Positions 8,264 to 61,937 of a DNA stretch of 64,000 bases are shown piece by piece. Under the pieces are notes generated by a model. It saw nothing but the letters and a program-made list of their open reading frames with translations, had not been told where the DNA came from and ran no database searches. Each line of letters starts with the position of its first letter. The stretch's first letter is position 1. This stretch comes from Pedosphaera sp. GTDB lineage: Bacteria; Verrucomicrobiota; Verrucomicrobiia; Limisphaerales; AAA164-E04. The stretch lies in the NCBI GenBank assembly GCA_002690655.1, contig NZFL01000034.1:38708-102707 (forward strand), read 5' to 3'. The position numbers and the translations under genes are program-made.

Positions 8264-8296
8264 TTCCTTTTCCTTGCTCAATATATATTTCGTAAA

Positions 8297-43958: not shown

Positions 43959-44072
43959 ATTGGGAGCAGGGGATGTTTGTTCACTTCTAGTGCTGCGATT
44001 GTTGAGTTTTGTTGAAAAAGTCCTGAGTTTGATTTATTTTATGAAGATTGGTGACCATATTTTAGTATTACA

Positions 44073-45338
44073 ATGAACTTGAAAGTCGATCGCAGGAAGT
44101 TTTTGAGAGGAGCTGGAATTGGGTTGGCCCTTCCCTTGTTGGAGTCTTTTGAGACATCAGCGATGAATGCCTCTTCCTCGGTTGAGCCTGTCAAGCGGCT
44201 CGTATGCATAGGCACTTACCTTGGCTTTCATCAGGCCGACTTTTTCCCAAAGCGTATTGGCAAATCCTACGAGATGCCTTTTGTTCTGGAGCCACTGACA
44301 CAGTTCAGAAATCAGTTCTCAATCTTTTCCGGTCTGGATCATCGAGGTCGAAATGGGCATGAAGGCTGGAAGGCCTGGATGAGTGGTTCTGCAACAGGTG
44401 CTGTCTCCATGGATCAATTGGTTGCGGGCCACGTTGGGCATCAAACACGATATGCATCCTTGCAACTCACCTGTGGTACGCCTCCTGATGCAGCGCGATT
44501 GAGTTTTACCAGGGAGGGTGTGGCTTTACCAATGATCGGTCGTCCAAGCGTGCTCTATCAAACACTTTTTCGTTCTGATAGCGACAAGTCCAGAATGGAA
44601 TATGTATTGAGAGGCAATGGTAGCGTATTGGATGACTTGAAGGAAGAGGCCAAATCAGTTCACCGACAAATTTCACGGCGTGATCAACAGAAATTGGATG
44701 AATATTTGTCGTCTCTGAGGCAGGTGGAGAAAATTCTTCAAAAACAGGAGACCTGGTTGGATAAGCCATTTCCTGAAACAGATTATGCATTGCCTCCTTT
44801 TGACCCGGTATCTCCTGATCAGTCTTTGGAATGCGAGTCAATAATGTATGATCTCATGGCCTTGGCCTTGAGCACGGATTCGACGCGTGTAATGACTTTT
44901 CTGGTGCCGGGATGGAGTCAGGTTTTTGAAATTGAGGGGCAGCGACTGAGCGCAGGGTATCACGGTCTTTCACATCACGGAAATGAAACAAGGAAAATTG
45001 CCGAATATAATCTTGTAGGCAGGGAGCACGTGCGGCGTTTTGCACGATTCATTGAAACATTGGGGAACTGCAAAGATCACCAAGATCGATCCCTACTCGA
45101 TTCCACAACCCTTGTTTACGGAAGCGGTATGGGGGATTCGAATACACATGATAATAGCAATTTACCGACACTTATCGCCGGGGGTGATTTCTCTCACGGC
45201 AATCACTGGGCCATCGACCGCACCTCGTCCAAGTCAAGGCTTCTAGGCGATTTAATGCTGACTCTGATGCAGAGGATGGGAATGGGAATTGAGGCGTTTG
45301 CTGGCGCGCGCCACAATATGAACGAGTGCTTAGTTTAG
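44073..45338 (+). CDS. DUF1552 domain protein with Tat-type leader
   Basis: MNLKVDRRKFLRGAGIGLALPLLESF..., GLSHHGN..., typical partner of DUF1592-family proteins. Confidence 0.85.
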   Translation: MNLKVDRRKFLRGAGIGLALPLLESFETSAMNASSSVEPVKRLVCIGTYLGFHQADFFPKRIGKSYEMPFVLEPLTQFRNQFSIFSGLDHRGRNGHEGWKAWMSGSATGAVSMDQLVAGHVGHQTRYASLQLTCGTPPDAARLSFTREGVALPMIGRPSVLYQTLFRSDSDKSRMEYVLRGNGSVLDDLKEEAKSVHRQISRRDQQKLDEYLSSLRQVEKILQKQETWLDKPFPETDYALPPFDPVSPDQSLECESIMYDLMALALSTDSTRVMTFLVPGWSQVFEIEGQRLSAGYHGLSHHGNETRKIAEYNLVGREHVRRFARFIETLGNCKDHQDRSLLDSTTLVYGSGMGDSNTHDNSNLPTLIAGGDFSHGNHWAIDRTSSKSRLLGDLMLTLMQRMGMGIEAFAGARHNMNECLV

Positions 45339-45342
45339 GCTT

Positions 45343-48003
45343 TTGATGAAAATTTTCCATTGGTGCCACTCGATTTGGTTGTCTGCCATTGTTCTTTCGG
45401 CTGATACGTTGCCTCGTTCAGCATCGACTTTCATCGAACAGCATTGTTTCGAGTGCCATGAGGGAAGTGATGATTCCCTGAAAGGTGATGTGAATCTTGG
45501 GCAGGCTTCCTTTGATTGGTCCTCCCCTGAAATCGTGGATTTGTGGACCACGATTCATGACGTCGTGGGTTCGAGCGACATGCCCCCAAGTGATGCTGGA
45601 TCTTTCCCTGGAACACAGGAGCGCGATGAATTTTTGGCGTGGTTGAAAGAAAAGCTTACTCGGCATGCGCCCGTCGGCGGGACTTTGCCAAGACGACTCA
45701 ATCGGGTGGAATATGAAAATACCATCCGCGATTTGTTTGGTTACCCGGAATTTGAAGTGCCTCCCTCATTTCCCTCTGACACTTCCAAACACGGATTCGA
45801 TAATGTGGCGTCGGGGATGCTCCTGTCCCCCCCATTATTGGCTCAGTATCTTGAGATTGCGACTGCCATTGCGGACGAATTTCTGCCACAACCTATTTCC
45901 CTGCCCAAAGCGGAGCCTCGTGATTATTCCATTCCCATGTCTGAATTGAGTACAGATGCAGGGGGCGGAGGTAGTCAAAGGGGTAGTGTTTTCCGACTTG
46001 TTTCTTCCCGGAATATGGCGAGTGGAGCGGGCTGGACTTCTTCGTTTGAAGCGCCGGTGAGTGGCGTTTATCGTGTTCAGATTGACGCCAATACCTTCCA
46101 AAGTGACCGCATGTTTTATGATCAGAGAAAGGTGCCTTTCAAATTGGCAGTCTATGCAAGGCAGAACGGGGAACAAAAATATGCACGGTTTTCTGATCTA
46201 AGAAAAATCGGAGAATTTAAAGTTTCGGCGGAATCCTCGGAAGGAGGCTTTGGAATTCTGGAAGCAGAACTTTTTCAGGGTGAGGTGTTGGGTTTTCGAT
46301 GGGCGGATGGTCCGGTTTTTTCTGATCCCGGAAGAATTGATCTTTCCCATGATTTTATCGATGACCGTTTGTTGAATGATCGACCCTTTTACGCCGCAGC
46401 AATTCAATTGAACGGAGGAAAGCGAGGATCCTCACAGGCGGAGTTTTACGAAGCCATTCGTGATCTTATTGAAAGCGGTCAACTTGACTTAAGCAATCCT
46501 GATTTGGATAAGGCTCCAGCTATTTATGGTGGCGGGTTATTCAATGGTCCACACAATTGGTGTCAGTCTTATGCTCATGAAGAGATGTATCGCTTTGGTC
46601 CAGCATTGGATATTGTGCGAGTTTCCGTTAGTGGCCCGAGTCGCACCGTCAGTAGCCAAAGAGAGCGTGCCAGGATGGTCAGATCGAAAGCATTTTTGAA
46701 CAGGCGGTCAGATGAAGTATCGGATCTGGTATTTACTGAAAGGTTTCTCAGAGGTTTTCTCTCAAAAGCATTCAGGCGACCTGTAAGCTCATTACAGCTG
46801 GACAAATATTTAGATCTTGTCCGGGCACATCGGGAATCTTTTCCGGACAAGCGTATTGAAGATGCACTCCACCTCGCTATCAGGAAAGCCCTTCTATCGT
46901 CGCGTTTCCTGTTTCGTGAGCTTGGATCGGGTAGTTTGGATGGTTTTGAATTAGCGAGCCGATTAAGCTATTTCCTAACAAGCGCTCCTCCTGATGATCG
47001 ACTAATCTCCTTGGCGGTAAAAGGTAAATTGTCGGACCCCATGACCTTGAAAAACGAAGCGTACCGTTTGTTGCGCCTGCCCCAGCGTAGAGCTTTCGTC
47101 CGTCACTTTACTGGTCAGTGGTTGGGCACAAGAAAGCTCATGGATATCATGCCTGATCCTCGATTACTAAAGTTTTATGGCCCTGACCGTCAAGCTATGA
47201 TCAACGAAACCGAACTCTTCTTTGAGGAGATGTTGGTTGAGAATCACAGTCTGGAACATTTTATTGATCCGGGATTCAGTTTTCGAAACCAAAACCTCAA
47301 CAAGATTTACGGAGGAGAGATCACCGGAAACAAGATGCAACGTGTGACTTTTCCGAAGGGAGGGAAGCAAGGTGGGTTACTTGGTCTGGCTTCCATTATG
47401 ATGGCGACTGCAAACGGTGTGGATACGCACCCAGTGCATCGAGGGGTATGGTTGCTGGAAAATGTCCTTGGTCAACCGACGCCGCCCCCGCCAGCTGATG
47501 TTCCTTCCGTGGCTCCGGATACAAGCGGTACGATAACGATGCGTGAAAAAATGTTGGCACATCAAGCCGATGCTTCCTGTGCTCGCTGTCATACAAAAAT
47601 TGATCCGCTTGGTTTCGTGATGGAGCATTATGACCCAGTTGGACGCTGGCGTGAGTATTATCCGGTTTACACCGAGTTAGCCTCCGCGCCGTTGAAAGAA
47701 GAATTCTATGCGAGTCAGGGGGAGGGAACCCAGAAGGGAAGGCATATCGATACGATGGCAGTGATGCCTGATGGAACGGTTTTAAAAGATGTCACGGATC
47801 TCAAAGCCTATCTGGTCACCAATATTGATTTATTTGTGGAATGTCTGGCTGAAAAGTTATTGATATACGGAACCGGTCGTCCGCTGAGCTTCGGTGACCA
47901 ACGAATCGTCCATGCATTGTCGCAACAGATTACAGGCAATAAACTCGGGTTTCAGGACATGATTGTTTCCGTGATACTGAGTGATTCATTTCTTTCTCGT
48001 TAG
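45343..48003 (+). CDS. DUF1587/DUF1592/DUF1595/DUF1588/DUF1585 multi-domain protein (PSCyt3-type, CxxCH)
   Basis: FIEQHCFECHEG (CxxCH at 45445-45459), LPRRLNRVEYENTIRDLFG, HPVHRGVWLLENVLGQPTPPPPADVP, CARCHTKIDPLGF. It starts 4 nt after the DUF1552 gene. Confidence 0.85.
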   Translation: MMKIFHWCHSIWLSAIVLSADTLPRSASTFIEQHCFECHEGSDDSLKGDVNLGQASFDWSSPEIVDLWTTIHDVVGSSDMPPSDAGSFPGTQERDEFLAWLKEKLTRHAPVGGTLPRRLNRVEYENTIRDLFGYPEFEVPPSFPSDTSKHGFDNVASGMLLSPPLLAQYLEIATAIADEFLPQPISLPKAEPRDYSIPMSELSTDAGGGGSQRGSVFRLVSSRNMASGAGWTSSFEAPVSGVYRVQIDANTFQSDRMFYDQRKVPFKLAVYARQNGEQKYARFSDLRKIGEFKVSAESSEGGFGILEAELFQGEVLGFRWADGPVFSDPGRIDLSHDFIDDRLLNDRPFYAAAIQLNGGKRGSSQAEFYEAIRDLIESGQLDLSNPDLDKAPAIYGGGLFNGPHNWCQSYAHEEMYRFGPALDIVRVSVSGPSRTVSSQRERARMVRSKAFLNRRSDEVSDLVFTERFLRGFLSKAFRRPVSSLQLDKYLDLVRAHRESFPDKRIEDALHLAIRKALLSSRFLFRELGSGSLDGFELASRLSYFLTSAPPDDRLISLAVKGKLSDPMTLKNEAYRLLRLPQRRAFVRHFTGQWLGTRKLMDIMPDPRLLKFYGPDRQAMINETELFFEEMLVENHSLEHFIDPGFSFRNQNLNKIYGGEITGNKMQRVTFPKGGKQGGLLGLASIMMATANGVDTHPVHRGVWLLENVLGQPTPPPPADVPSVAPDTSGTITMREKMLAHQADASCARCHTKIDPLGFVMEHYDPVGRWREYYPVYTELASAPLKEEFYASQGEGTQKGRHIDTMAVMPDGTVLKDVTDLKAYLVTNIDLFVECLAEKLLIYGTGRPLSFGDQRIVHALSQQITGNKLGFQDMIVSVILSDSFLSR

Positions 48004-51628: not shown

Positions 51629-52378
51629 TCAACGACGCGAGCGATTTTCGTCCTGTGATAATTCGTAGGTATAGAGGTATTTCTCTCTCTTAACCCATTT
51701 GGCGCTCCCGTCGCACATCTGGAAGTTCGTGCCATCTTCGCCGTGATTGTCGTTGGGATCTGGGTAATTATTTTGTGCTCCTGTTCCCTGACCGTCACCA
51801 TCAAATATCAAATAAATATCTGACGGACCAACCACTTGTCCCCTTAATCCCTGAGCAGAGCTCTTGTGTACCCAGCTCAGGACCGTTCGTTCAGTTTTTC
51901 TTGTTGTGTAATTCATGAACGCGTTGATCTCATAGCTAACTCCACGTAAATCTGCCTGTCGGGTTCGAGTGCCGCGCATGCGTTTATATGGAGCCTGGCG
52001 GCGTAAATCCTCCAGTATTTTTCTGCCTCGCACCGTGACTGTATTTGTAGCGATAAAGTTTTGAGTGGATGGACATACAAATATCGATTGGGCATTGGCG
52101 CTTGGGATGTAAGTTGGATGCAACCAGGACAGATCGTCACTATTGTCGTCTGGAGTGCCTGATAACCATCCTTTTTCATTGTCCTGACCATACATCATGG
52201 AGCCTAACCCCATCTGCTTGAGGTTGTTGAGGCAACTGATGCGGCGGACCTTTTCCTTGGCCTTGGAAAGCGCGGGTAAGAGCATGCCTGCCAGAATGGC
52301 GATGATAGCAATCACCACGAGTAATTCAATCAGTGTGAACGCTCCTGCGCATGCCTGGTGTTTCTTCGATAGTCTCAT
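51629..52378 (-). CDS. Prepilin-type N-terminal cleavage/methylation domain protein
   Basis: The ATG at 52378 gives [43 protein letters not shown]. The C-terminus reads [12 protein letters not shown]. The track ORF extends to 52525, but that extra N-terminus has no support. Confidence 0.85.
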
Positions 52379-52820
52379 GATCAGTTGAAGATTGTTCAAA
52401 ATGATGGAGCGCGTCCATAAATTTCTAAAGTTTGGAACTCCCGGGAGCGGCGTCTTCATGAGTGTCAAAAGCATTTTTTTAGCCATGCGTTTCCAGTCTG
52501 GGTTCTGCCAAGTGACAGCACGCAAATCACACGATTAGATATTCATCTTGGAGTATGTCATTTGCCGCCCGCTGACGTTGCAGCATATGGAACGACCCTA
52601 TCAACGATTACTTTTATCATATCCAGATCAAGGGAGTTATTATTGGAACCAGCTGCCTTGACGGTGGTGACGAAGATCTTTTTTCGAATCCAAAAGGATA
52701 ATTGATAATGCTTGATTATTTGCTCGGTTCATCCACACATGCTTTCTTCGCGCTCATAGTCCTTGAAATCTTGAGTTGATTTCTTTTCAGTGTCGTGAAC
52801 GTTCGAGTGTGTTTGTTTGA

Positions 52821-55454
52821 ATGGAGCAAGTTATGCAAAAAGAGATTGCATCGTCGTTATGGAAAAAATGGGGCCCTTACCTGAGTGAGCGTCAGTGGGG
52901 CACTGTGCGAGAGGATTATAGCTCCACGGGAGAAGCATGGGACTACCTCAGCCATGACTTGGCGCGCAGTAGGGCCTACAGATGGGGTGAGGATGGAATC
53001 GCTGGTTTCAGTGATGATCGACAATCGTTGTGTCTGGGGGTTGGTTTGTGGAATCACAAGGATCCAATACTCAAAGAACGCATGTTTGGCCTGACTGGTG
53101 TCGAAGGCAATCACAGTGAAGATGTCAAAGAGGTGTATTATTATCTTGATGCCACTCCATCGCATGATTACCTCAAGATGCTTTATAAATATCCTCAGAC
53201 TGCTTTTCCCTATCAACAGCTCGTGGATGGTAATCGAACTGGCAAAGAAAGCCCCGAGTATGAGTTGGTGGATACCGGGGTCTTCAAAGAGGATCGATAC
53301 TTTGACGTTTTTATCGAATATGCTCGACCCCGGCCTGATGATACTTTGATTGAAGCAACGATTGTCAATCATGGGCCCGAGCCTGCTGCTCTGACATTTC
53401 TTCAGCAGCTTTGGTTCCGTAATACATGGTCCTGGGGGAACAATGATCAAGCCAAACCCCGCATGCAAGGAGTGGATTCCATCGGTCTTGAGATTCATCA
53501 TGAAGCGCTCGGTCATCTTTATTTCCATGCTGAAAATCCAGATGACCTAATCTTCACGGACAATGAATCACGTCCAGAACACAGATTGGGTTCGAAGCCT
53601 CAAGGTTATTGGAAGGATGCGTTTCACGAATACCTTGTTCACGGTAACTCCAAGGCGATCAATCCCAATGGGCAGGGTACTAAATGCGCCGCGCTGCATC
53701 GTTTGAAGTTAGAAGCTGGAGAAACCAGAAAATTAAGGTTTCGTCTGACCTCACAAAAAGCGATCAAGCCATTTGAAGGATTTGATGAAACATTTCAGCA
53801 GATCAGGAATTCGGCGGATCGTTTTTACGGCCACCTTCAAGAAAATATCGAAAGCCCTGATGAACGGTTAATCCAGAGGCAAGCTTTTGCAGGTTTGATC
53901 TGGAGTAAACAGTTTTATTATTACGACGTTGAAAAGTGGATTGCTGGGGATCCGGGGCAGCCAGCTCCCTCAGCTTCACGACACCATGGACGCAATCATG
54001 AATGGCTTCATTTAAAAAATGCCGACATCATTTCCATGCCGGATAAGTGGGAATATCCCTGGTATGCCGCCTGGGATTTAGCTTTCCATTGTGTTCCTTT
54101 CGCTCTGATCGATACCGAATTTGCCAAGGAGCAAATGCTATTAATGCTTCAGGAATCATACCTCCATCCTAATGGGCAAATTCCCGCCTACGAGTGGTCT
54201 TTTGGAGATGTAAATCCGCCTGTTCATGCTTGGGGTGCATGGCGTGTCTACCAGATGGACCGTAAACGCAACGGATTTGCAGACCGTTGTTTTCTCGAAC
54301 AAGTCTTTCATAAACTGCTCCTGAATTTTACATGGTGGGTGAACCGCAAGGACGTGGACAATCGAAATGTCTTTCAGGGTGGTTTTCTTGGACTGGATAA
54401 CATTGGGGTCTTTGATCGAAGCATTCCAGTTCCCGGAGGTGGGCAGTTGGATCAGGCAGATGGTACTGCGTGGATGGCGATGTATTCACTCAATATGATG
54501 CGCATAGCACTGGAGCTTTCACTGCAGAATCCGGTCTATCAAGAAATCGCCATCAAGTTTTTAAATCACTTCCTGGCCATCGCAAAAGCCATGACCAATA
54601 TTGGTGAGTCGGGCATTAGTTTGTGGGATGAAGAGGATAAGTTCTTCTATGATGTTTTACACTTTCCTGAAGAAAAACCGATTCACGTCAAAGTACGTTC
54701 CATTGTGGGACTGATTCCCATATTCGCGGTGGAAGTGCTCGAACCGGAATTGCTTGAAAGGGTGCCGAGGTTCAACGAACACCTTGACTGGATACTTGAG
54801 AACCGACCGGAATTGGCCTCGCTTGTTTCGCGTTGGAACGAACCTGGCAGAGGACATCGTCATTTGTTTTCCCTCTTACGTGGAAGTCGGCTCAAATGTT
54901 TATTGCGGCGGATGCTGGACGAAGATGAGTTCCTTTCCTCATACGGTATCAGGTCAATGTCCAAAATACATGAGAAACATCCATATGTCTTGCACTGTGA
55001 GGGGAAAACGAAGCATTGCAATGGTTCTTCAAAAGTGGATTATCAACCGGCTGAATCCAATACCCATATGTTTGGCGGTAATTCAAATTGGCGTGGTCCC
55101 ATCTGGTTTCCTGTCAATTTCCTGCTTATTGAATCTCTCCAACGCTTTCACCACTATTACGGAAGCGATTTTAAAGTCGAATCGCCTTTTACCTCGGGTC
55201 AAAAACTCACTCTTGAAGATGTTGCTGAGGATATTTCCAATCGTCTCGGAGATCTTTTCCGCAGGGACGATCAAGGGCATCGTCCTATTTACAAGCATCA
55301 TCCCGATATTCAGTTGAATCCACAATTCAAAGATTGCATCTGGTTTTATGAATACTTTCACGGTGACAGCGGGCGTGGCGTAGGAGCATGTCATCAAACG
55401 GGTTGGACAGCGCTTATTGCCAAATTGCTCCACCCCAGAGTCAAAGAGAACTGA
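52821..55454 (+). CDS. GH63-like (alpha/alpha)6-barrel glycoside hydrolase (glucosidase / MGH1-like)
   Basis: 877 aa, cytoplasmic (no signal peptide). Motifs: YRWGEDGIAGFSD, KWEYPWYAAWDLAFH, GQIPAYEWSFGDVNPPVHAW, WRGPIWFPVNFLLIESL, YFHGDSGRGVGACHQTGWT. Family assignment is by motif memory. Confidence 0.65.
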   Translation: MEQVMQKEIASSLWKKWGPYLSERQWGTVREDYSSTGEAWDYLSHDLARSRAYRWGEDGIAGFSDDRQSLCLGVGLWNHKDPILKERMFGLTGVEGNHSEDVKEVYYYLDATPSHDYLKMLYKYPQTAFPYQQLVDGNRTGKESPEYELVDTGVFKEDRYFDVFIEYARPRPDDTLIEATIVNHGPEPAALTFLQQLWFRNTWSWGNNDQAKPRMQGVDSIGLEIHHEALGHLYFHAENPDDLIFTDNESRPEHRLGSKPQGYWKDAFHEYLVHGNSKAINPNGQGTKCAALHRLKLEAGETRKLRFRLTSQKAIKPFEGFDETFQQIRNSADRFYGHLQENIESPDERLIQRQAFAGLIWSKQFYYYDVEKWIAGDPGQPAPSASRHHGRNHEWLHLKNADIISMPDKWEYPWYAAWDLAFHCVPFALIDTEFAKEQMLLMLQESYLHPNGQIPAYEWSFGDVNPPVHAWGAWRVYQMDRKRNGFADRCFLEQVFHKLLLNFTWWVNRKDVDNRNVFQGGFLGLDNIGVFDRSIPVPGGGQLDQADGTAWMAMYSLNMMRIALELSLQNPVYQEIAIKFLNHFLAIAKAMTNIGESGISLWDEEDKFFYDVLHFPEEKPIHVKVRSIVGLIPIFAVEVLEPELLERVPRFNEHLDWILENRPELASLVSRWNEPGRGHRHLFSLLRGSRLKCLLRRMLDEDEFLSSYGIRSMSKIHEKHPYVLHCEGKTKHCNGSSKVDYQPAESNTHMFGGNSNWRGPIWFPVNFLLIESLQRFHHYYGSDFKVESPFTSGQKLTLEDVAEDISNRLGDLFRRDDQGHRPIYKHHPDIQLNPQFKDCIWFYEYFHGDSGRGVGACHQTGWTALIAKLLHPRVKEN

Positions 55455-56946: not shown

Positions 56947-57219
56947 ATGTCAAAAGCAATCATGGATCCGGAAGAAGTTCGACGCTTCGCGAAGGAGTTG
57001 AAGCACTTTAATGCAGGCCTTCAGCAGGGAATGACTTTGCTGGATGCGCGGTTCAAGGCGCTTGGCGACACTTGGCAGGATCAGGAACACCAACGGTTTT
57101 CAGAGGAATTCAGCCAGACCATGCGGGCTTTGAAGAAATTTGTTGAAGTGTCGAACGAACATACCCCCTTCTTGCTTCGCAAAGCGCAGCGGATCGAGGA
57201 TTATCTGGAGCAGCGATAG
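56947..57219 (+). CDS. WXG100 (EsxA/ESAT-6)-like small helical-hairpin protein, W-x-D variant
   Basis: 90 aa with a central Trp (W43, 57073-57075). The pattern IMDPEEVRRFAKEL...LGDTWQDQEHQRFSEEFSQTMRALKKFVEV mirrors the WXG100 consensus (...PEE(I/L)R...W.G.A...F...F......KF...). It is the first gene of a coupled four-gene cassette ending in an EssC-like ATPase. Confidence 0.7.
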   Translation: MSKAIMDPEEVRRFAKELKHFNAGLQQGMTLLDARFKALGDTWQDQEHQRFSEEFSQTMRALKKFVEVSNEHTPFLLRKAQRIEDYLEQR

Positions 57220-57221
57220 CC

Positions 57222-57806
57222 ATGCCCTCAAAGGCTCAGATACATTCGGTGGACGCTTTGGAATTGTTCAGGGTGAAGCTAGTCCAGTACCTCGAAAAGT
57301 CGATCACGACCATGGATGAAGTCGGCAGCGATCTCAAGCGAACGCTGATCTGGCTTGAAGAACAGCAAAAACCTTTTTGGGAACATCAAGTGCGTCTCAA
57401 GCGTCGTGCTTTGGAGGAGACGCGAAATGAAATCTTTGGAGCCAAGCTCTCACAGATGCGTCATTCCAGCGATGCACAGCAAGTAGCCCTTCAACGCGCC
57501 AAGCAAGCCTTTGAGGAAGCCGAAGAAAAGCTTCATCGAGTAAAAAAGTGGTGTCGTCGATATCAAAGCGATGTGGAACCGCTGGGGCGTGAAGTGGAAA
57601 AACTCCAAGCAGTCATGTTTCAGGACCTGAAACAAGGCGCCGCTCTCCTTGATCGAATCATTCGTACTTTGGAGGATTATGCGGATCGACGTAAATCGCT
57701 TGATTCGGATCGATCGGACATGGTTGAGGTTTTAGAGGGGGGAACTGGTTTGCCGGATCAGCGGGGTATCGAAGTCAACAAGGATTTGGGAGAGTCGGAA
57801 TCATGA
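57222..57806 (+). CDS. All-helical 194-aa protein of unknown function (cassette gene 2)
   Basis: It starts 2 nt after the gene 1 stop. Heptad-rich sequence with W-containing turn candidates (TLIWLEEQQKPFWEHQV). It has an R-T-L-E-D-Y-A-D-R-R motif like the C-terminus of gene 1, then an acidic/Gly tail. Confidence 0.6.
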   Translation: MPSKAQIHSVDALELFRVKLVQYLEKSITTMDEVGSDLKRTLIWLEEQQKPFWEHQVRLKRRALEETRNEIFGAKLSQMRHSSDAQQVALQRAKQAFEEAEEKLHRVKKWCRRYQSDVEPLGREVEKLQAVMFQDLKQGAALLDRIIRTLEDYADRRKSLDSDRSDMVEVLEGGTGLPDQRGIEVNKDLGESES

Positions 57807-58012
57807 GTTTGCACGCACGCAATCAATTAATGGCATTGACCAAAGATCTCCTTCGAACATGGGAACGAACGCGATCGGTTTGGAAAGATGGCAAGGCGGA
57901 CGCATTCGAACGCGACTACATCAAGGAACTCGAATCAAGCGTGAATCGAGCCGTTCATGGGATGGAAAAGCTGGATGTTATCTTGAAGAAAGTGAGGAAA
58001 GATTGTGGCTAA
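57803..58012 (+). CDS. Short WXG100-like helical protein (69 aa; W-K-D-G turn)
   Basis: ATGA overlap with gene 2. SVWKDGKADAFERDYIKELESSVNRAVHGMEKLDVILKKV resembles the W-x-G turn plus second helix of WXG100 proteins, with a shortened first helix. Confidence 0.55.
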   Translation: MSLHARNQLMALTKDLLRTWERTRSVWKDGKADAFERDYIKELESSVNRAVHGMEKLDVILKKVRKDCG

Positions 58013-61000
58013 AATACTCACAGCAGGTCAATCGATCTCGACCTTGGAAAAGCTCCGCCAGACCATGGAGGAGCTGGGGGGGCGCGAGAAGGCGTTGATC
58101 GCATCACGCGATCGAGAATTGAAGTCCATCCAGCAAAAATATGCCCTGGAAAATGCGCGCTTCAAACGACAGGCTGAAGCTGAAACACAAAAGGCGATGG
58201 AAGCTCTGAATGAAGAGCGAATTCGACTCGAATCCCACTTTGCCTTGCGTAAGGTTCGTATTGATCATGCTTATGAGAATGCGCAGAAGGCATTGAATGA
58301 GGCTGCCGAGCAAACGCGCAGTCAACAGAAGTATGAAAATCAAAAAGAACTTTTGCAGGCTAATCGCGCGCATGACGCTGACCTTCAATCCGTGGATCAT
58401 GTCAGGAAATCTTTTTCGGCTGAATTATCAAATGAGACCCAGCGTCTTGAGAATAGTGGTGGGCTTGGTTGGAGGGTTTTCAAAGGTTATGGTAATTTCA
58501 GGAGGTGGCTTCGAGATGGAGGGCAACCCTCTCCTGGCGAAGTAAGCTTCCAAGATGAGAATGCACTGCTTGAGTCATTGAAATCCCAGCTGACCGAGCT
58601 CGAATCGTCTCTCTCTTTTTCCGTTCACAACGCTCTGGCCCGCCTCTTCTCCTTCGTCTCCATCTGGCTGATCCTGTGTTGCCTTGGCATTGGTGGAGCG
58701 ATTGTATTCCTGATGCCGCAGGTATCCGATGCCATTGGTGCAACTCAGAACCGGATCTTGATAGGGTTCGGGGGTATGGGGGGGCTGGTAATGATTGTAT
58801 ACGCGATGGGCTACATACTGGCCCGAGGTGCCGCACGCTCCTTCGTGAATTCATTCGCAAATTGCACCGGCTTGATCGAACAATGCCAACTTGCCGCCAA
58901 TCGAAGTCGTGAGGATGCTACGGCCTCTGCACGTGAAGTTCTTCAGACCATTGAAAGCCGTCTTGAAGCCGCATGGCTTGATGCCGATGTTTCGGCGACA
59001 GAACAATGTGAACGCGGACTCAACAAGCTGTTACCCCAGCGAAACCGTTTGATGGCGCGGCATGAATCGATGCTTGCCACTGCGCTGAAACGCTTGAGTG
59101 AAAGCAGGCCCTCAGGATTGGATAATGGAAATTTTGCATTCCACGAGAAGGATGAAAAAGGTGAAACGGATCAACAGGCCCTGCAAACCGAGGTCATACG
59201 TCGTTTTGATCAAGAAATTGGAGACGTCTGTTCTGATTGGAATCGATTGATTCCTGCGTGGTGTTCAGACCTCAACACAAGTCGGGAAGCCGTTCGGCAG
59301 ATGGAACAGACGTGGAATACCGCATCCACGCAAGGGTGGGAAGTTCCGCTTTCAGGGGAACCGGCTGGCTGCTTTGCTCAAATCACAATCGATTGGAAAG
59401 AGTTTGCCCCATCGGTTCCTACTGATTCGAGCATGCACTTGCCAAAAGGCGCATGTTTGCAAGTGCCCATGGTCTTCAAGATGCCCTTGGGAGAATCGGT
59501 TTTGTTTGAATCAGAAGGACCTGCTCCTGAGCAAATTATCGAGGCCATCAATCATACCGCGTTGGAACTCCTGTTGACCGCTCCTGCAGGGCGGATGAGG
59601 TTTACCCTGATCGATCCGGTCGGTCTGGGTAAAAACTTTGCAGGGTTGATGCACCTTGCCGATTATGACGACCAGTTGATCAATCGACGTATCTGGACCC
59701 AACCGAATCAAATTGAACAGTGCCTGTTCGATTTGACGGAACACATGGAGAAGGTGACACAAATGTATCTCCGCAACGAATACGACACTCTGGCCGAATA
59801 CAATCAAGTCGCAGGCAATATCGCGGAAAAATATCATGTGCTGGTCGTTTCCGATTTTCCTACGGGATTCAGTGAATCTGCCTTGCGTAGATTACATAAT
59901 ATCGCCGTCAGTGGGGCCCGCTGCGGGGTGTTCTTGCTTTTGCATCGTGACCGTCGTCAGGCAATGTCCGAAGACGCTGTGGTCCACGACCTGCGCGAAC
60001 ACTGTGTTTGGATTCAATCACAAAAGAACGGATATCGATTGGGTGCGCATGCATGGACGGGCGTTCATTTGAATTGGATTGATCGAGTCAAACTTCAGGA
60101 CACGGTTCATCTCATCCATCAGATAGGTCAAGCCAATGTCGATTCGAATCGCGTGCAGGTTCCGTTCTCGCAAATCACTCCCAAGCCTGATGCATGCTGG
60201 ACTCAAGATACCAGCGCTTCATTGAAGGTTCCCATTGGGCGGACAGGTGCTTCGAAATTGCAGTATCTGACGCTCGGTAAAGGTACTCAGCAGCATGCCC
60301 TTATTGCAGGGAAAACCGGTTCAGGTAAGTCGACTTTATTTCATGTCATCGTCAGCAATCTTGCGCTTTGGTGTAGTCCGGATCAGGTCGAGTTCTATCT
60401 TATCGATTTCAAGAAAGGCGTTGAATTCAAGTGTTATGCTGCGCATAAAATGCCTCATGCCCGCGTGGTTGCGATTGAGAGCGATCGTGAATTCGGCCTC
60501 AGCGTTTTGGAGCGAGTGGATCAGGAACTCCGTCGGCGTGGAGACTTGTTCCGTGAAAAAGGGGTCCAGGATCTAGCGAGGTATCGTTCCGCTGAGGATA
60601 CACAGCCCCTGCCTCGCACACTCCTGATGATTGACGAATTTCAGGAATATTTTGTCGAAGATGATCACGTGGCTCAAAACGCAGCAGTTTTGCTGGATCG
60701 TATTGTTCGCCAAGGGCGCGCGTTCGGGATTCATGTGATTCTGGGATCGCAGACGCTGGGGGGCGCCTACACCCTGGCTCGCACTACTTTTGCCCAGATG
60801 GCGGTTCGCATTGCACTTCAATGTGATGAGGCGGACTCTTATCTGATCATGGATGAGAACAATGCTGCACCCAGACTTCTCTCCCGTCCCGGTGAAGGAA
60901 TATACAACAACAGAAACGGCGCAGTGGAAGGGAACAGTCCGTTCCAGACGGTCTGGCTGAATGACGACGAGCGAGATACATACCTGCAACAGGTGAGCAC

Positions 61001-61937
61001 CTTGGCTCAAAACCATGCTTCGAAGGAAACGGGCCCCGTGGTCTTTGAGGGGAACGCCCCTGCCGATATCAGGGATAACCATGAGCTTGTCGCCGCCCTT
61101 GGGATCGAACCTTCCGGCGATCCAGAAGAGACCTGCGCCTGGCTCGGGGCCCCCAATTCCATCAAGGGTCCGACAGGCGCTGCCTTTGGTGTGCAAAGCA
61201 GCAGTAACCTTCTGATCATCGGTCAGAATGAAGAGATGGCCTTTTCAATGATCATCAGTAGTTTGATTTCGCTTGCGGCACAACAATCCTCAGATCGGGC
61301 CGAGTTCATTGTTCTGGATGCCTTTCCAGATCATTCTGCCAAGCGTGAGATGATGGATCAGGTCATCGCCATGCTGCCGCATCGAGTCAGGTCATTGAAG
61401 CATGAGCGACTTGAGGACATCATGGAGCGACTTGAAACCCATATGGATCGGCGTGCCGAGCATGGAGCCGTTCATGGCGAAATATACTTCATCGTGATTG
61501 GACTTCAGTTGTTCAAGAAGCTAAGGCCCGAGGACGAATTCAGTTTTTCCGCAAATGAGGAAGAAGGTGATTCAAAGCCTGGTGCCGTATTGGATCGAAT
61601 CATTCGTGAAGGATCCAGCCTTGGAGTTCGGGTTTTGGCGACGATGGATTCCTACAACAGTAGCCAACGATTTCTAAACCGAAAAGCACTTTCGGAATTT
61701 GAGATGCGTGTCCTTTTCCAGATGAGTGCGAACGATTCAGCGGCGTTGATCGATCATACCAAGGCCAGTCAATTGGGCCTTCATCGGGCTCTTTTCTACA
61801 ACGAACGACGTGGATATACAGAGGTCTTTCGCCCCTACGCCATGCCTGATGGATCCTGGCTATCTGATGTGCGAGACCATTTCGAAAAACGTTCACCACG
61901 CCTAAGTAAAAGCTCCGGAGATACCTGCACTTCCTAG
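58005..61937 (+). CDS. EssC/EccC-like membrane-anchored FtsK/SpoIIIE-family ATPase with three tandem P-loop-type folds (only the middle one canonical)
   Basis: 1310 aa. A roughly 210-aa coiled-coil N-terminus, then a TM hairpin (aa 211-237 and 250-273; 58635-58823). FtsK-like fold 1 (aa ~495-700) has ...RFTLIDPVGLGKNFAGLMHLADY...HVLVVSDFP and no Walker A. Fold 2 (aa ~745-985) has Walker A GKTGSGKST (60309-60335), EFYLIDFKKGVEF and Walker B LLMIDEFQEY (60621-60650). Fold 3 (aa ~1045-1280) has IIGQNEEMAFS and YFIVIGLQLF at the Walker positions. The GTG start at 58005 overlaps the gene 3 stop by 8 nt; ATG at 58065 is the alternative. Confidence 0.8.
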   Translation: MAKILTAGQSISTLEKLRQTMEELGGREKALIASRDRELKSIQQKYALENARFKRQAEAETQKAMEALNEERIRLESHFALRKVRIDHAYENAQKALNEAAEQTRSQQKYENQKELLQANRAHDADLQSVDHVRKSFSAELSNETQRLENSGGLGWRVFKGYGNFRRWLRDGGQPSPGEVSFQDENALLESLKSQLTELESSLSFSVHNALARLFSFVSIWLILCCLGIGGAIVFLMPQVSDAIGATQNRILIGFGGMGGLVMIVYAMGYILARGAARSFVNSFANCTGLIEQCQLAANRSREDATASAREVLQTIESRLEAAWLDADVSATEQCERGLNKLLPQRNRLMARHESMLATALKRLSESRPSGLDNGNFAFHEKDEKGETDQQALQTEVIRRFDQEIGDVCSDWNRLIPAWCSDLNTSREAVRQMEQTWNTASTQGWEVPLSGEPAGCFAQITIDWKEFAPSVPTDSSMHLPKGACLQVPMVFKMPLGESVLFESEGPAPEQIIEAINHTALELLLTAPAGRMRFTLIDPVGLGKNFAGLMHLADYDDQLINRRIWTQPNQIEQCLFDLTEHMEKVTQMYLRNEYDTLAEYNQVAGNIAEKYHVLVVSDFPTGFSESALRRLHNIAVSGARCGVFLLLHRDRRQAMSEDAVVHDLREHCVWIQSQKNGYRLGAHAWTGVHLNWIDRVKLQDTVHLIHQIGQANVDSNRVQVPFSQITPKPDACWTQDTSASLKVPIGRTGASKLQYLTLGKGTQQHALIAGKTGSGKSTLFHVIVSNLALWCSPDQVEFYLIDFKKGVEFKCYAAHKMPHARVVAIESDREFGLSVLERVDQELRRRGDLFREKGVQDLARYRSAEDTQPLPRTLLMIDEFQEYFVEDDHVAQNAAVLLDRIVRQGRAFGIHVILGSQTLGGAYTLARTTFAQMAVRIALQCDEADSYLIMDENNAAPRLLSRPGEGIYNNRNGAVEGNSPFQTVWLNDDERDTYLQQVSTLAQNHASKETGPVVFEGNAPADIRDNHELVAALGIEPSGDPEETCAWLGAPNSIKGPTGAAFGVQSSSNLLIIGQNEEMAFSMIISSLISLAAQQSSDRAEFIVLDAFPDHSAKREMMDQVIAMLPHRVRSLKHERLEDIMERLETHMDRRAEHGAVHGEIYFIVIGLQLFKKLRPEDEFSFSANEEEGDSKPGAVLDRIIREGSSLGVRVLATMDSYNSSQRFLNRKALSEFEMRVLFQMSANDSAALIDHTKASQLGLHRALFYNERRGYTEVFRPYAMPDGSWLSDVRDHFEKRSPRLSKSSGDTCTS

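What the first reader, a model, noticed from the sequence alone, without database searches (positions are those of the whole stretch)
56947..61937. Minimal type VII secretion-like cassette (WXG100-like proteins + EssC/EccC-like triple FtsK ATPase) in a PVC-type, presumably diderm genome
Four co-directional genes are packed with a 2-nt gap, a 4-nt ATGA overlap and an 8-nt overlap, so they should form one translationally coupled operon.

- Gene 1 (90 aa) has the length, central Trp and flanking helix pattern of WXG100/EsxA proteins.
- Gene 3 (69 aa) carries a W-K-D-G turn.
- Gene 4 is a 1310-aa protein with a TM hairpin followed by three FtsK/SpoIIIE-like folds. That is the defining architecture of the T7SS motor EssC/EccC.

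Characterised T7SS (ESX in Actinobacteria, Ess/Yuk in Firmicutes) need further membrane components: EccB/D/E and MycP, or EssA/EssB/EsaA. Nothing resembling these is visible on either flank. The flanks are a SASA esterase and a Gfo/Idh/MocA oxidoreductase. The host context (prepilin-like proteins, DUF1501/DUF1553, O-antigen ligase, MsbA-like exporter) implies an outer membrane, and no known T7SS explains how that would be crossed.

The locus is therefore a candidate for a stripped-down, functionally uncharacterised WXG/FtsK export or assembly system.
Basis: partly seen in the sequence, partly recalled or inferred. Interest (0 to 1): 0.85.

Follow-up and report, generated by a model that had tools for sequence, protein, structure and literature searches.

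The report
Verrucomicrobial WXG100 plus EssC-like ATPase cassette
This is a real four-gene operon in a Verrucomicrobiota genome, with three small helical proteins (one a clear ESAT-6/WXG100 relative) and a membrane-anchored relative of the type VII secretion motor; this kind of cassette in Gram-negative phyla has already been described from sequence, but nobody has shown what it does.

Summary
Four co-directional ORFs (90, 194, 69 and 1310 aa) have a 2-nt gap, an ATGA overlap and an 8-nt overlap.

- **Gene 1** passes the Pfam WXG100 threshold. Its closest solved relative is H. pylori HP0062, and its turn reads W-Q-D, not W-x-G.
- **Gene 4** has one TM hairpin and three tandem FtsK-like folds. 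Only the middle fold keeps Walker A/B. Its fold matches EccC best; FtsK matches over one domain only.
- **Gene 2** is a long two-helix hairpin from no known family.
- **Gene 3** is only weakly WXG-like.

The cassette is present in the same order in 68 of 72 verrucomicrobial species loci. No flanking gene is conserved, and the ATPase tree follows taxonomy.

The novelty claim is overstated. Zhang et al. 2012 noted solo WXG plus a three-domain, middle-active YueA-like ATPase in verrucomicrobia. Bell et al. 2024 described the same four-part module, and HP0062/HP0066 has been called a minimal T7SS. The closest ATPase relatives sit on plasmids and lack the TM hairpin; one sits beside a nuclease toxin and its immunity gene.

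Best reading: a chromosomal, membrane-anchored member of that known but uncharacterised family, probably exporting its helical-hairpin partners across the inner membrane. Secretion is unproven.

The parts
56947..57219 (+). Gene 1: 90-aa WXG100-family helical-hairpin protein. The turn motif is T-W-Q-D-Q-E-H and there is no signal peptide.
   Evidence: - Pfam PF06013 scores 41.3 bits, above its cut-off of 27.3.
- The best PDB relative is H. pylori HP0062 (3fx7/2gts, E 9e-7), followed by EsxA/EsxB.
- It is 90 aa in all 22 aligned orthologues, with 78% mean column identity and invariant W43 and D45.
- Orthologues sit next to related ATPases on Caballeronia, Helicobacter and Rhodococcus plasmids.
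57222..57806 (+). Gene 2: 194-aa soluble protein. It is a long antiparallel two-helix hairpin (residues 10-78 and 84-172) followed by a variable tail that scores low confidence in the model.
   Evidence: - AlphaFold2 with 44 sequences gives mean pLDDT 86.6.
- Only generic coiled-coil fold matches, all at E >= 0.01.
- No Pfam or PDB family.
- The family comprises 1740 clusters at E <= 1e-10 in the 50%-identity library.
- Invariant residues include F16, L20, W44, E54, W110, P120 and Y153.
- hhalign matches its N-terminal 153 residues to the N-terminus of a 314-aa Rhodococcus plasmid protein next to a related ATPase, at E 9.6e-5 and probability 58%.
57803..58012 (+). Gene 3: 69-aa soluble protein translationally coupled to the ATPase gene. 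It carries a W-[RKQ]-D turn-like motif and an invariant C-terminal Cys. It may be a second, shorter WXG100-like hairpin.
   Evidence: - Homologues are 60-81 aa, nearly all 68-70, with invariant W20, W27, D29, F35 and C68.
- hhalign against gene 1 aligns the W-x-D turns, but only at E 0.014.
- 2 of 25 homologues hit PF06013 weakly.
- A 73-77-aa gene holds the same position in the plasmid relatives.
- Bell et al. report a second WXG100-like protein without WxG in the homologous module.
- No structure was predicted here.
58005..61937 (+). Gene 4: 1310-aa membrane-anchored EssC/EccC-like ATPase of the FtsK/HerA superfamily.
   Evidence: - PF01580 scores 105 bits.
- NCBIfam gives EccCa 121, EccCb 100 and EssC 98 bits, against FtsK 28 bits.
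- PDB sequence hits are EccC, EccC5 and YukB.
- The best Foldseek match is EccC.
- Full-length homologues occur in at least 559 genome loci.
58005..58619 (+). Gene 4 residues 1-205: charged, helix-prone N-terminal region, a presumed cytoplasmic coiled coil.
   Evidence: - The composition is rich in E, K, R, Q, L and A.
- There are weak matches to SMC-type coiled coils, JetC and LmuB.
- Bell et al. describe an N-terminal coiled coil of more than 200 residues in the homologous ATPases.
- No structure or formal coiled-coil prediction was made here.
58629..58823 (+). Gene 4 residues about 209-273: TM hairpin, with two hydrophobic helices joined by a loop of about 10 residues.
   Evidence: - Kyte-Doolittle peaks reach 2.5 and 1.9.
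- Both segments are kept in at least 73 of 81 full-length homologues.
- The hairpin is absent from the plasmid-borne relatives.
59364..60170 (+). Gene 4 residues about 454-722: first P-loop-like fold, degenerate. It carries D-P-V-G-L-G-[QRE]-N-F where Walker A would be.
   Evidence: - The AF2 model shows an alpha/beta fold.
- The motif is conserved but lacks GK[ST].
- Residues 589-730 align with the part of the EccCa profile that lies N-terminal of the stretch matching the active domain.
60222..60950 (+). Gene 4 residues about 740-982: second P-loop fold, the only catalytic one. Walker A G-K-T-G-S-G-K-S-T is at 769-777 (nt 60309-60335). Walker B L-L-M-I-D-E is at 873-878 (nt 60621-60638).
   Evidence: - Walker A G769-S776 (K770 in 80 of 81) and the D-E of Walker B are invariant in 81 of 81 sequences.
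- It is most similar to EccC D1: 70.8 bits to EccC5 D1 against 28.4 to D2.
60948..61895 (+). Gene 4 residues about 982-1297: third P-loop-like fold, degenerate (G-Q-x-E-E, no lysine). It is a candidate substrate-receptor domain.
   Evidence: - AF2 model.
- Motif census.
- The EccCb profile (D2+D3) aligns through residue 1151.
- Foldseek aligns the whole three-domain region with EccC D1-D3.
- The receptor role is inferred by analogy with EccC D3 and was not tested.

Best explanation
The locus is the chromosomal, membrane-anchored form, inherited mostly vertically within Verrucomicrobiota, of a gene module already recognised from sequence. That module is a 'solo' WXG100 protein plus a distinct three-domain EssC/YueA-like ATPase in which only the middle domain is active.

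**Shown here**
- The four genes form one tightly coupled, conserved unit.
- Gene 4 has a TM hairpin and three FtsK-like folds, with one catalytic site.
- Gene 1 is a WXG100 protein.
- Gene 2 is a long helical hairpin.
- None of the small proteins has a hydrophobic segment that could act as a signal peptide.

**Inferred**
- Gene 4 assembles, like other FtsK/HerA/EccC ATPases, into a hexameric ring held at the cytoplasmic membrane by 12 TM helices and long coiled coils.
- ATP hydrolysis in the middle domain drives the work.
- The degenerate C-terminal domain docks the helical-hairpin proteins.
- Genes 1, 3 and 2 form helical bundles. Gene 1 may form a homodimer as HP0062 does, or pair with gene 3. 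Gene 2 would be a long stalk comparable to the coiled-coil or LXG-type carrier domains of T7SS toxins, but with no toxin attached.
- These bundles are the clients or adaptors that are moved, folded, across the inner membrane into the periplasm.
- No outer-membrane step is encoded at the locus, so export probably ends in the periplasm or envelope.
For: **Homology to the two universal T7SS parts**
- WXG100 passes its Pfam threshold.
- The ATPase is closest to EccC/EssC by profile, sequence and fold.

**Membership of the three-domain, middle-active family**
- Motif census of 81 sequences and the AF2 model.
- tblastn to plasmid three-domain ATPases reaches E 9e-99 over all three domains. Canonical EccCa matches a single domain at about 1e-13.
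- Each of the three plasmid relatives inspected sits beside a gene 1 orthologue, at E 2e-26, 2e-16 and 7e-10.

**Literature description of the same module**
-.

**One functional unit**
- Overlapping or abutting genes.
- 68 of 72 loci keep all four genes in order.
- No conserved neighbours.

**Membrane anchoring specific to this clade**
- The TM hairpin is conserved in at least 73 of 81 sequences.

**Pointers towards export for the family**
- In the Helicobacter plasmid relative, the middle gene is a coiled-coil protein ending in a WHH/colicin-type DNase, followed by a SUKH immunity gene. That is the hallmark of delivered polymorphic toxins.
- The small proteins are soluble helical hairpins without signal peptides, the class of cargo that T7SS moves.

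**Vertical inheritance**
- The ATPase tree groups by verrucomicrobial taxonomy.
Against: - No secretion has been shown for any Gram-negative WXG100/FtsK pair.
- The closest ATPase relatives lack TM helices. For these, Bell et al. suggest 'a different mechanism'.
- Gene 1 is more conserved (78% column identity) than the motor (41-56% identity in the best segment), which suits a structural or regulatory subunit at least as well as a cargo.
- The W-x-G glycine and the YxxxD/E export motif are absent.
- The periplasmic loop is only about 10 residues, and no further membrane or outer-membrane component is linked.
- Two more distant TM-bearing homologues (35-36% identity) have no WXG100 gene nearby.
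- The gene 3 fold, the gene 1/2/3 complexes and hexamer formation were not tested.
Confidence: 0.5

Rival explanations
1. It is a non-secretory module working at the cytoplasmic face of the membrane. The ATPase ring, regulated or loaded by the WXG100-like hairpins, would remodel or sense something inside the cell (a stress, conflict or defence function). This would match its TM-less relatives embedded in TerY-P/CoCoNuT-type conflict islands. In Verrucomicrobiota the effector domain of gene 2 would have been lost and the module re-used.
For: - The nearest three-domain ATPases lack a TM hairpin.
- The inspected relatives sit in varied conflict- or stress-type settings. On the Caballeronia plasmid the neighbours are VWA/TerY, PP2C, a Ser/Thr kinase, CARF and AAA genes. 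On the Helicobacter plasmid they are a nuclease and its immunity gene. On the Rhodococcus plasmid they include TerD genes.
- Bell et al. consider a mechanism other than membrane secretion for such ATPases.
- Gene 1 is very strongly conserved.
- Gene 2 has no effector domain.
Against: - In this clade a TM hairpin is conserved in at least 73 of 81 sequences.
- No defence or conflict genes flank the cassette in about 80 loci.
- PADLOC gives only generic FtsK/HerA-domain hits.
- Inheritance follows taxonomy and shows no sign of island-like turnover.
Confidence: 0.27
2. It is the core of a complete, envelope-spanning type VII-like secretion system. The remaining membrane and outer-membrane parts would be encoded elsewhere in the genome.
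For: - The two universal T7SS components are present and coupled.
- The host is diderm, so a secreted product would need an outer-membrane route.
- Only 64 kb of the genome could be inspected.
Against: - No EccB/D/E, MycP, EssA/B or EsaA-like gene, and no other conserved gene, accompanies the cassette in the window or within about 6 kb in about 80 species loci.
- The ATPase scores far below every T7SS equivalog cut-off, and it has one catalytic domain and one P-loop fold fewer than EccC/EssC as I recall their architecture.
- No such system is reported for any diderm-LPS bacterium in the reviews read.
Confidence: 0.1
3. Gene 4 is a DNA translocase or conjugative coupling protein (FtsK, TraB or TcpA-like) belonging to a mobile element.
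For: - It belongs to the FtsK/HerA superfamily.
- Relatives occur on plasmids.
- Earlier authors called the WXG100/FtsK operon a likely mobile element.
Against: - FtsK scores 28 bits against a cut-off of 1566, and no FtsK gamma or alpha domain is detected.
- FtsK and TcpA match only one domain, at about 1e-10, against 1.7e-30 for EccC across three domains.
- The window has no tRNA gene, and the flanking genes examined in the window and the recurrent flanking families in about 80 loci include no recognised integrase, relaxase or replication gene.
- The flanks are ordinary metabolic genes.
- The tree follows taxonomy.
- Linkage to a WXG100 gene is invariant.
Confidence: 0.04

Closest known systems
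Solo WXG100 plus three-domain, middle-active YueA/EssC-like ATPase module (Zhang et al. 2012, Biol Direct, Table 1 note 6; Anantharaman et al. 2012 as cited by Bell et al.; Bell et al. 2024, eLife, type III-A CoCoNuT extension)
   Same: - A WXG100 gene.
- A coiled-coil protein.
- A second small helical protein without WxG.
- An EssC-like ATPase with three FtsK/HerA folds, only the central one active, and a long N-terminal coiled-coil region.
- Verrucomicrobia are explicitly listed as carriers.
- The gene 1 orthologue is shared at E 2e-26, and the ATPases at E 9e-99 and 4e-64.
   Different: - Here the ATPase carries a conserved TM hairpin inside the coiled-coil region. The plasmid and CoCoNuT forms have none.
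- Gene 2 has no nuclease or other effector domain.
- There are no VWA/TerY, kinase/phosphatase, CARF or McrBC neighbours.
- Inheritance looks vertical, not mobile.
Helicobacter pylori HP0062 (WXG100-like, PDB 3FX7/2GTS) with the HP0066 FtsK/SpoIIIE protein
   Same: - HP0062 is the closest solved relative of gene 1 (E 9e-7, aligned end to end). It has W-R-D where gene 1 has W-Q-D.
- It is a dimeric helical hairpin, is clustered with an FtsK/SpoIIIE protein in a diderm bacterium, and has been called a minimal T7SS set.
   Different: - The H. pylori island also holds a DnaK homologue and an HNH/EndoVII nuclease.
- The related Helicobacter plasmid ATPase is 823 aa and has no TM hairpin.
- The function of the H. 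pylori pair is also unknown.
Type VII secretion systems: T7SSa (ESX: EccC plus EsxA/EsxB) and T7SSb (Ess/Yuk: EssC/YukB plus EsxA/YukE)
   Same: - A membrane-anchored FtsK/SpoIIIE-family motor with tandem P-loop domains, plus a WXG100 hairpin protein encoded beside it.
- Best profile, sequence and fold matches of gene 4 are EccC, EssC and YukB.
   Different: - Three P-loop folds, not the DUF plus D1-D3 that I recall for EccC/EssC, and a single catalytic site.
- No FHA domains, with coiled coils in their place.
- No EccB/D/E/MycP or EssA/EssB/EsaA/EsaB partners nearby.
- No W-x-G glycine and no YxxxD/E tail.
- The host is a diderm with an LPS-type outer membrane.
- Scores are far below the family cut-offs (121 against 509, 100 against 347, 98 against 778).
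LXG toxin / Lap targeting-factor pre-secretion complexes of T7SSb
   Same: This is a likeness in how it may work, not membership. One long helical-hairpin protein (gene 2) is encoded together with two small helical-hairpin proteins (genes 1 and 3) next to the motor. In the Helicobacter plasmid relative the long protein carries a C-terminal nuclease with an immunity gene.
   Different: - No sequence or profile similarity to LXG, DUF3130 or DUF3958 was found.
- Gene 2 has no toxin domain.
- Complex formation was not tested.
FtsK/SpoIIIE DNA translocases and TcpA/TraB-type conjugation ATPases
   Same: They share the RecA-like FtsK/HerA motor fold in the middle domain.
   Different: - Those proteins have a single motor domain.
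- The gamma/KOPS domain is absent here.
- The FtsK model scores 28 bits against a cut-off of 1566.
- No mobile-element context.

Membership tests
Type VII secretion system (ESX / Ess-Yuk) | A WXG100-family protein is encoded next to the motor. | tested here: met
   Gene 1 scores 41.3 bits on PF06013, above the 27.3 cut-off. It scores 30.1 on TIGR03930, below that model's cut-off of 44.85.
Type VII secretion system (ESX / Ess-Yuk) | W-x-G turn motif and a C-terminal YxxxD/E export motif on the substrate. | tested here: not met
   The turn reads W43-Q-D45, with W and D invariant and no G. The C-terminus reads Y86-L-x-Q-[RHK] in the 22 orthologues, so there is no acidic residue at +4.
Type VII secretion system (ESX / Ess-Yuk) | A membrane-bound FtsK/SpoIIIE-family ATPase with two TM helices. 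| tested here: met
   PF01580 scores 105 bits. The TM hairpin lies at about 209-273 and is conserved in at least 73 of 81 sequences.
Type VII secretion system (ESX / Ess-Yuk) | EccC/EssC domain plan: a DUF (degenerate) domain plus three nucleotide-binding domains D1-D3, scoring as an EccC/EssC equivalog. The plan is stated from my own recollection of the literature. | tested here: not met
   There are three P-loop folds in all, and Walker A/B survive only in the middle one. TIGR03924 scores 121 against 509, TIGR03925 scores 99.6 against 346.55, and TIGR03928 scores 98.5 against 778.4.
Type VII secretion system (ESX / Ess-Yuk) | Accessory membrane components (EccB/D/E and MycP, or EssA/EssB/EsaA/EsaB). 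| tested here: not met
   None lies in the flanks of the window. No gene family is shared by more than 5 of about 80 loci within about 6 kb. The rest of the genome could not be examined.
Type VII secretion system (ESX / Ess-Yuk) | ATPase-dependent export of the WXG100 protein. | not testable with these tools
   This needs fractionation or secretion assays. A 2023 review states that Gram-negative WXG100/FtsK pairs are functionally unconfirmed.
Solo-WXG100 / three-domain middle-active EssC(YueA)-like ATPase module | Three tandem FtsK/HerA folds, with only the central one catalytically intact. | tested here: met
   AF2 model and Foldseek. GKTGSGKST and DE are invariant only in domain 2. Domain 1 reads DPVGLG[QRE]NF and domain 3 reads GQxEE.
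Solo-WXG100 / three-domain middle-active EssC(YueA)-like ATPase module | An adjacent stand-alone WXG100 gene orthologous to those of the described modules. | tested here: met
   The gene 1 HMM hits the WXG100 genes next to the Caballeronia, Helicobacter and Rhodococcus plasmid ATPases at E 2e-26, 2e-16 and 7e-10. hhalign probabilities are 99.5, 98.2 and 90.7%.
Solo-WXG100 / three-domain middle-active EssC(YueA)-like ATPase module | A second small WXG100-like protein without WxG, encoded just upstream of the ATPase. | tested here: inconclusive
   Position and size match: 69 aa here against 73-77 aa in the plasmid loci. Profile evidence is weak, at E 0.014 against gene 1 and E 0.0056 against the Rhodococcus 73-aa protein. 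No structure was predicted.
Solo-WXG100 / three-domain middle-active EssC(YueA)-like ATPase module | A coiled-coil protein between the WXG100 gene and the ATPase, often fused to a nuclease. | tested here: met
   Gene 2 is a long two-helix hairpin. Its N-terminal domain aligns with that of the Rhodococcus 314-aa protein at E 9.6e-5. No nuclease domain is present here. The Helicobacter counterpart carries a WHH/colicin DNase. Similarity to the Helicobacter and Caballeronia middle proteins is not significant.
Solo-WXG100 / three-domain middle-active EssC(YueA)-like ATPase module | A soluble ATPase (no TM helices), mobile and embedded in conflict islands, as described for the CoCoNuT/TerY-P form. 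| tested here: not met
   The TM hairpin is conserved, there are no conflict-gene neighbours, and the tree follows taxonomy. This marks a distinct, stand-alone, membrane-anchored branch of the family. Zhang et al. list verrucomicrobia among carriers without these restrictions.
FtsK/SpoIIIE DNA translocase | A single alpha/beta motor plus a gamma (KOPS-binding) domain, scoring as an FtsK equivalog. | tested here: not met
   NF007615 scores 28.1 bits against a cut-off of 1566. No FtsK gamma or alpha Pfam hits. Foldseek matches to FtsK cover one domain only.

The most novel reading that the evidence does not exclude
The cassette is a self-sufficient, minimal protein-export or envelope-assembly machine: one EssC-like hexamer whose own 12 TM helices form the channel, plus three helical-hairpin partners. 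It would have been inherited vertically since early Verrucomicrobiota and would serve a housekeeping envelope function in a diderm phylum. That would make it a functional 'type VII-like' inner-membrane pathway outside Actinomycetota and Bacillota that needs none of the known accessory subunits.
Probability: 0.3. Interest if true: 0.75.

Novelty: new member of a known kind. Interest (0 to 1): 0.45.

Why it matters
Whether WXG100/FtsK pairs in Gram-negative phyla secrete anything has been an open question since they were first noticed. The form described here is a good place to test it, for four reasons:
- It is membrane-anchored.
- It is reduced to four genes.
- It carries no toxin or defence genes that could confuse the phenotype.
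- It is present in many verrucomicrobial lineages, including record titles for cultured or culturable groups (Luteolibacter sp. LG18, Prosthecobacter, Spartobacteria bacterium LR76).

If it exports its hairpin proteins, it would define the minimal requirement for T7SS-type transport and add an export route to diderm bacteria. If it does not, it would show that the WXG100/EssC pair has a non-secretory ancestral or derived role. That would affect how such genes are annotated across thousands of genomes, where they are currently labelled 'FtsK/SpoIIIE domain-containing protein' or 'DNA segregation ATPase'.

Tried and rejected
- **Flanking ATPase domains against PDB.** Single-sequence PDB searches with gene 4 residues 459-732 and 994-1310 found nothing. 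Their P-loop nature rests on the AF2 model, Foldseek and the extent of the profile alignments.
- **Gene 2 family.** Pfam, NCBIfam, PADLOC and PDB profile searches, and Foldseek, gave only coiled-coil noise. One homologue hit YscO at 7.5e-5. I did not build on it.
- **Gene 3 as WXG100.** Profile-profile, PDB-profile and per-member Pfam scans stayed below significance.
- **Essentiality in Verrucomicrobium spinosum.** The Tn-seq paper discusses only the true FtsK, and its supplements hold no WXG100, SpoIIIE or type VII entry.
- **Anantharaman et al. 2012.** The paper is not held, so it is cited only through Bell et al.
- **Mobile-element and defence readings for this clade.** Rejected on the absence of tRNA genes, recognised mobility genes and conflict-gene neighbours, on flank clustering, and on only generic PADLOC hits.
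- **Terminator and promoter scans.** Uninformative, at chance level.
- **Literature search.** A search for type VII secretion together with Verrucomicrobiota or Planctomycetota returned no functional study.

Full report
**1.

The ORF listing gives four + strand ORFs: 56947-57219 (90 aa), 57222-57806 (194 aa), 57803-58012 (69 aa) and 58005-61937 (1310 aa, GTG start). The junctions, read from the sequence, are TAG-CC-ATG (2-nt gap), ATGA (4-nt overlap) and GTGGCTAA (8-nt overlap). Purine-rich ribosome-binding-like stretches lie before genes 1 and 4. Terminator-like sites in the scanned stretch do not exceed chance.

The flanks are a SASA esterase and a Gfo/Idh/MocA oxidoreductase. The wider window is typical of the PVC superphylum: DUF1501, DUF1549/1553, DUF1552 and a DUF1559 prepilin-like protein. 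NCBI labels near-identical copies of gene 4 'FtsK/SpoIIIE domain-containing protein [Verrucomicrobiota bacterium]'. The window holds no tRNA gene and no second copy of any of the four genes.

**2. What the four proteins are**

*Gene 1*
- It passes the Pfam WXG100 gathering threshold (41.3 against 27.3 bits).
- Its closest solved relative is H. pylori HP0062, a dimeric helical hairpin (E 9e-7, aligned over the whole length). EsxA and EsxB follow.
- Like HP0062 (W-R-D), it has W-Q-D in place of W-x-G.
- In 22 orthologues the protein is always 90 aa, with 78% mean column identity. W43 and D45 are invariant, and the tail reads L-L-R-K-A-x-R-I-E-x-Y-L-x-Q-[RHK]. There is no YxxxD/E motif.

*Gene 2*
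- It has no Pfam, NCBIfam, PADLOC or PDB relative.
- AlphaFold2 with 44 homologues (pLDDT 86.6) gives two long helices, 10-78 and 84-172, forming an antiparallel hairpin. A low-confidence tail follows, and it is variable in length and sequence across homologues.
- Foldseek finds only generic coiled coils, all at E >= 0.01.
- The family is large: 1740 clusters at E <= 1e-10 in the 50%-identity library, with listed lengths of about 120-245 aa, mostly 170-200.

*Gene 3*
- It belongs to a family of mostly 68-70-aa proteins with invariant W20, W27, D29, F35 and a C-terminal D-C-E.
- Its W-x-D aligns with the turn of gene 1, but only at hhalign E 0.014 and probability 3%.
- Two of 25 members touch PF06013 weakly. 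Whether it is a WXG100-like hairpin is therefore undecided here.

*Gene 4*
- Residues 1-205 are charged and helix-prone.
- Residues about 209-241 and 250-273 form a TM hairpin with a loop of about 10 residues.
- Residues 295-440 form a second charged, helix-prone stretch.
- Three alpha/beta P-loop-like folds follow, at about 454-722, 740-982 and 982-1297 (AF2 of residues 443-1310, pLDDT 76).
- Foldseek's best match is the three-ATPase cytoplasmic region of T. curvata EccC (E 1.7e-30, 905 aligned columns), then the EccC and EssC D2-D3 structures. FtsK and the TcpA coupling protein match a single domain at about 1e-10.
- NCBIfam ranks EccCa (121 bits), EccCb (100) and EssC (98) far above FtsK (28). 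All are far below the family cut-offs.
- In 81 full-length sequences the Walker A (G-K-T-G-S-G-K-S-T) and Walker B (D-E) of the middle domain are invariant. The first domain has D-P-V-G-L-G-[QRE]-N-F and the third has G-Q-x-E-E at the equivalent places. The TM hairpin is kept in at least 73 of 81.
- By sequence, the active domain resembles EccC D1 most, and the stretch just before it aligns with the preceding part of the EccCa profile. So the protein looks like DUF-like plus D1-like plus one degenerate C-terminal domain. By my recollection of the EccC/EssC architecture, that is one P-loop fold fewer.

**3. Conservation and context elsewhere**

- Close homologues at 58-72% identity carry the same four genes in the same order, with different flanks.
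The best 80 are nearly all titled as Verrucomicrobiota, including Chthoniobacterales/Spartobacteria, Limisphaerales/Pedosphaera, Methylacidiphilales, Akkermansiaceae, Prosthecobacter, Luteolibacter and Haloferula.
- With iterated HMMs, 68 of the 72 loci that hold at least 1300 nt upstream have genes 1, 2 and 3 in order. The 8-nt gene3/gene4 overlap is the commonest junction.
- The four exceptions contain no N runs and really lack gene 1 nearby.
- Clustering all other ORFs of at least 100 aa within about 6 kb found no family in more than 5 loci. The unit is exactly these four genes, and no outer-membrane or other partner travels with it.
- A neighbour-joining tree of the ATPase groups sequences by verrucomicrobial taxon, which points to mainly vertical descent.
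- Two more distant TM-bearing homologues (35-36% identity) have no WXG100 gene nearby.

**4. The nearest relatives outside the phylum change the picture**

tblastn against plasmids shows that the best matches over all three domains are not canonical EccC, which matches one domain at E about 1e-13. They are three-domain ATPases on plasmids of Rhodococcus (E 9e-99), Deinococcus, Caballeronia and Helicobacter. Their loci read as follows.

| Plasmid host | Gene order |
|---|---|
| Helicobacter sp. | WXG100 (89 aa), 340-aa helical protein ending in a WHH/colicin-type DNase, SUKH immunity protein, 77-aa protein, ATPase (823 aa) |
| Caballeronia | VWA, WXG100, 436 aa, 113 aa, 76 aa, ATPase (927 aa), CARF, VWA, PP2C, Ser/Thr kinase, AAA |
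| Rhodococcus | ATPase, 314 aa, 73 aa (with L-W-R-D), WXG100 (87 aa), with TerD genes nearby |

- The gene 1 HMM recognises those WXG100 proteins at E 2e-26, 2e-16 and 7e-10.
- The gene 2 profile aligns with the N-terminal 136 residues of the Rhodococcus 314-aa protein at E 9.6e-5. It does not align significantly with the Helicobacter or Caballeronia middle proteins.
- None of these plasmid ATPases has a TM hairpin.

**5. Prior knowledge**

- Zhang et al. [quoted passage not shown]
- Bell et al. 2024 (PMC11090510) describe, inside type III-A CoCoNuT/TerY-P loci, an EssC-like ATPase with three domains of which only the central one is active. It has an N-terminal coiled coil and no TM helices. 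With it come two WXG100 proteins (one without WxG) and a coiled-coil-nuclease fusion. They cite Anantharaman et al. [quoted passage not shown]
- HP0062 is reported to cluster with a protein that has an FtsK/SpoIIIE domain. [quoted passage not shown] 2017.
- A search for functional work linking T7SS with Verrucomicrobiota or Planctomycetota found none.

**6. Interpretation**

Family assignment is secure. The locus belongs to the solo-WXG100 / three-domain middle-active EssC-like family, which is homologous to the T7SS core. It is not a member of T7SSa or T7SSb, because several defining features were tested and not met.

Four things distinguish this verrucomicrobial branch:
- a conserved TM hairpin in the ATPase;
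- a gene 2 reduced to the helical carrier-like domain, with no effector;
- no conflict-system neighbours;
- inheritance that follows taxonomy.

The mechanism I consider most likely (about 0.5) is an inner-membrane, ATP-driven translocase for its own helical-hairpin partners. The arguments for it are the membrane anchor, the homology, the tight operon coupling and the toxin-immunity pair in a relative.

The main rival (about 0.27) is a non-secretory role at the cytoplasmic face. Its arguments are the TM-less relatives, the very high conservation of gene 1, the missing export motifs and the lack of any outer-membrane component. A complete envelope-spanning T7SS (about 0.1) and a DNA translocase (about 0.04) are less likely.

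**7. Verdict**

The claims of 'defining EssC/EccC architecture' and of an unexplained new system are overstated, because this cassette type is already described for this phylum from sequence analysis.

This analysis adds four things:
- the census of the four-gene unit across the phylum;
- the fold of gene 2;
- the clade-specific TM hairpin;
- the contrast between vertical inheritance here and the mobile, effector-bearing relatives elsewhere.

The function remains untested.

**Caveats**
- About ten of the 80 genome loci carry record titles that are non-verrucomicrobial or name no phylum (for example 'Klebsiella', 'Bifidobacterium', acidobacterial names). I take these as mislabelled MAGs but did not check.
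- The prevalence of the cassette within the phylum was not measured.
- The tree is a simple p-distance NJ tree.
- Coiled-coil status of the gene 4 N-terminus rests on composition and on the literature.

Noticed in passing
L003 3893-7924 and L004 5867-9829: Two more distant full-length homologues of the ATPase (35-36% identity, with TM hairpin and the same three-domain plan) stand alone. No WXG100, gene 2-like or gene 3-like ORF lies in the DNA available around them. The L004 context (FliW, a BMC shell protein, a prenyltransferase-like gene) suggests a different lineage.
   Followed up: partly
L085 (Helicobacter sp. NHP19-012 plasmid) 4749-9151: A related cassette reads WXG100 (89 aa, with a true W-G-D turn), a 340-aa helical protein ending in a WHH/colicin-type DNase, a SUKH-1 immunity protein, a 77-aa protein and a TM-less three-domain ATPase. 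This is a polymorphic-toxin layout in a Gram-negative.
   Followed up: partly
L086 (Caballeronia sp. SBC2 plasmid pSBC2-5) 3528-15344: The same module is embedded between VWA (TerY-like) genes and followed by a CARF protein, a PP2C phosphatase, a Ser/Thr kinase and an AAA protein. This is the TerY-P/CoCoNuT-type conflict island described by Bell et al. 2024. Its WXG100 protein is strikingly close to gene 1 (E 2e-26).
   Followed up: partly
L087 (Rhodococcus sp. AH-ZY2 conjugative plasmid) 5489-10919: An actinobacterial version has the gene order reversed (ATPase, 314 aa, 73 aa with L-W-R-D, WXG100 87 aa) and sits next to TerD-family and DUF475 genes. The ATPase is 1322 aa but lacks a clear TM hairpin.
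   Followed up: partly
L008, L035, L049, L082: Four verrucomicrobial loci have the ATPase but lack gene 1. Three of them also lack gene 2, and L035 lacks all three small genes. There are no assembly gaps. This could be loss, relocation or local misassembly.
   Followed up: partly
window 57803-58012 and alignment A2: Gene 3 homologues end in an invariant Cys within a D-C-E/G terminus. A conserved lone cysteine at the extreme C-terminus of a 70-aa cytoplasmic helical protein is unexplained.
   Followed up: no
window 35829-48003: Clustered PVC-signature genes: DUF1501 (35829-37271), two DUF1549/DUF1553 PSCyt/PSD proteins (37261-39633 and 39771-41699), DUF1552 (44073-45338), and a DUF1585/1587/1588/1592/1595 protein (45343-48003).
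   Followed up: no
window 52821-55454: An 877-aa MGH1-like / GH63-family glycoside hydrolase lies upstream of the SASA esterase. Together with the DUF1559 prepilin-like gene at 51629-52525 (- strand), this is ordinary verrucomicrobial carbohydrate and envelope context, unrelated to the cassette.
   Followed up: no
L005, L028, L031, L032, L034, L045, L046, L048, L052, L058, L065: Some genome records holding the cassette carry titles that are non-verrucomicrobial or name no phylum (Klebsiella, Bifidobacterium, acidobacterial candidates, Bacteroidetes, Omnitrophota, Victivallales, 'bacterium'). Their ATPases are as similar to the query as those from records titled as verrucomicrobial, and the one included in the tree (L045) nests among them. 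Mislabelled or contaminated MAGs seem more likely than transfer.
   Followed up: no
window 60573-61196 (- strand): A 207-aa antisense ORF lies wholly inside gene 4. Given the strong conservation of gene 4 on the + strand, it is most likely a spurious ORF.
   Followed up: no
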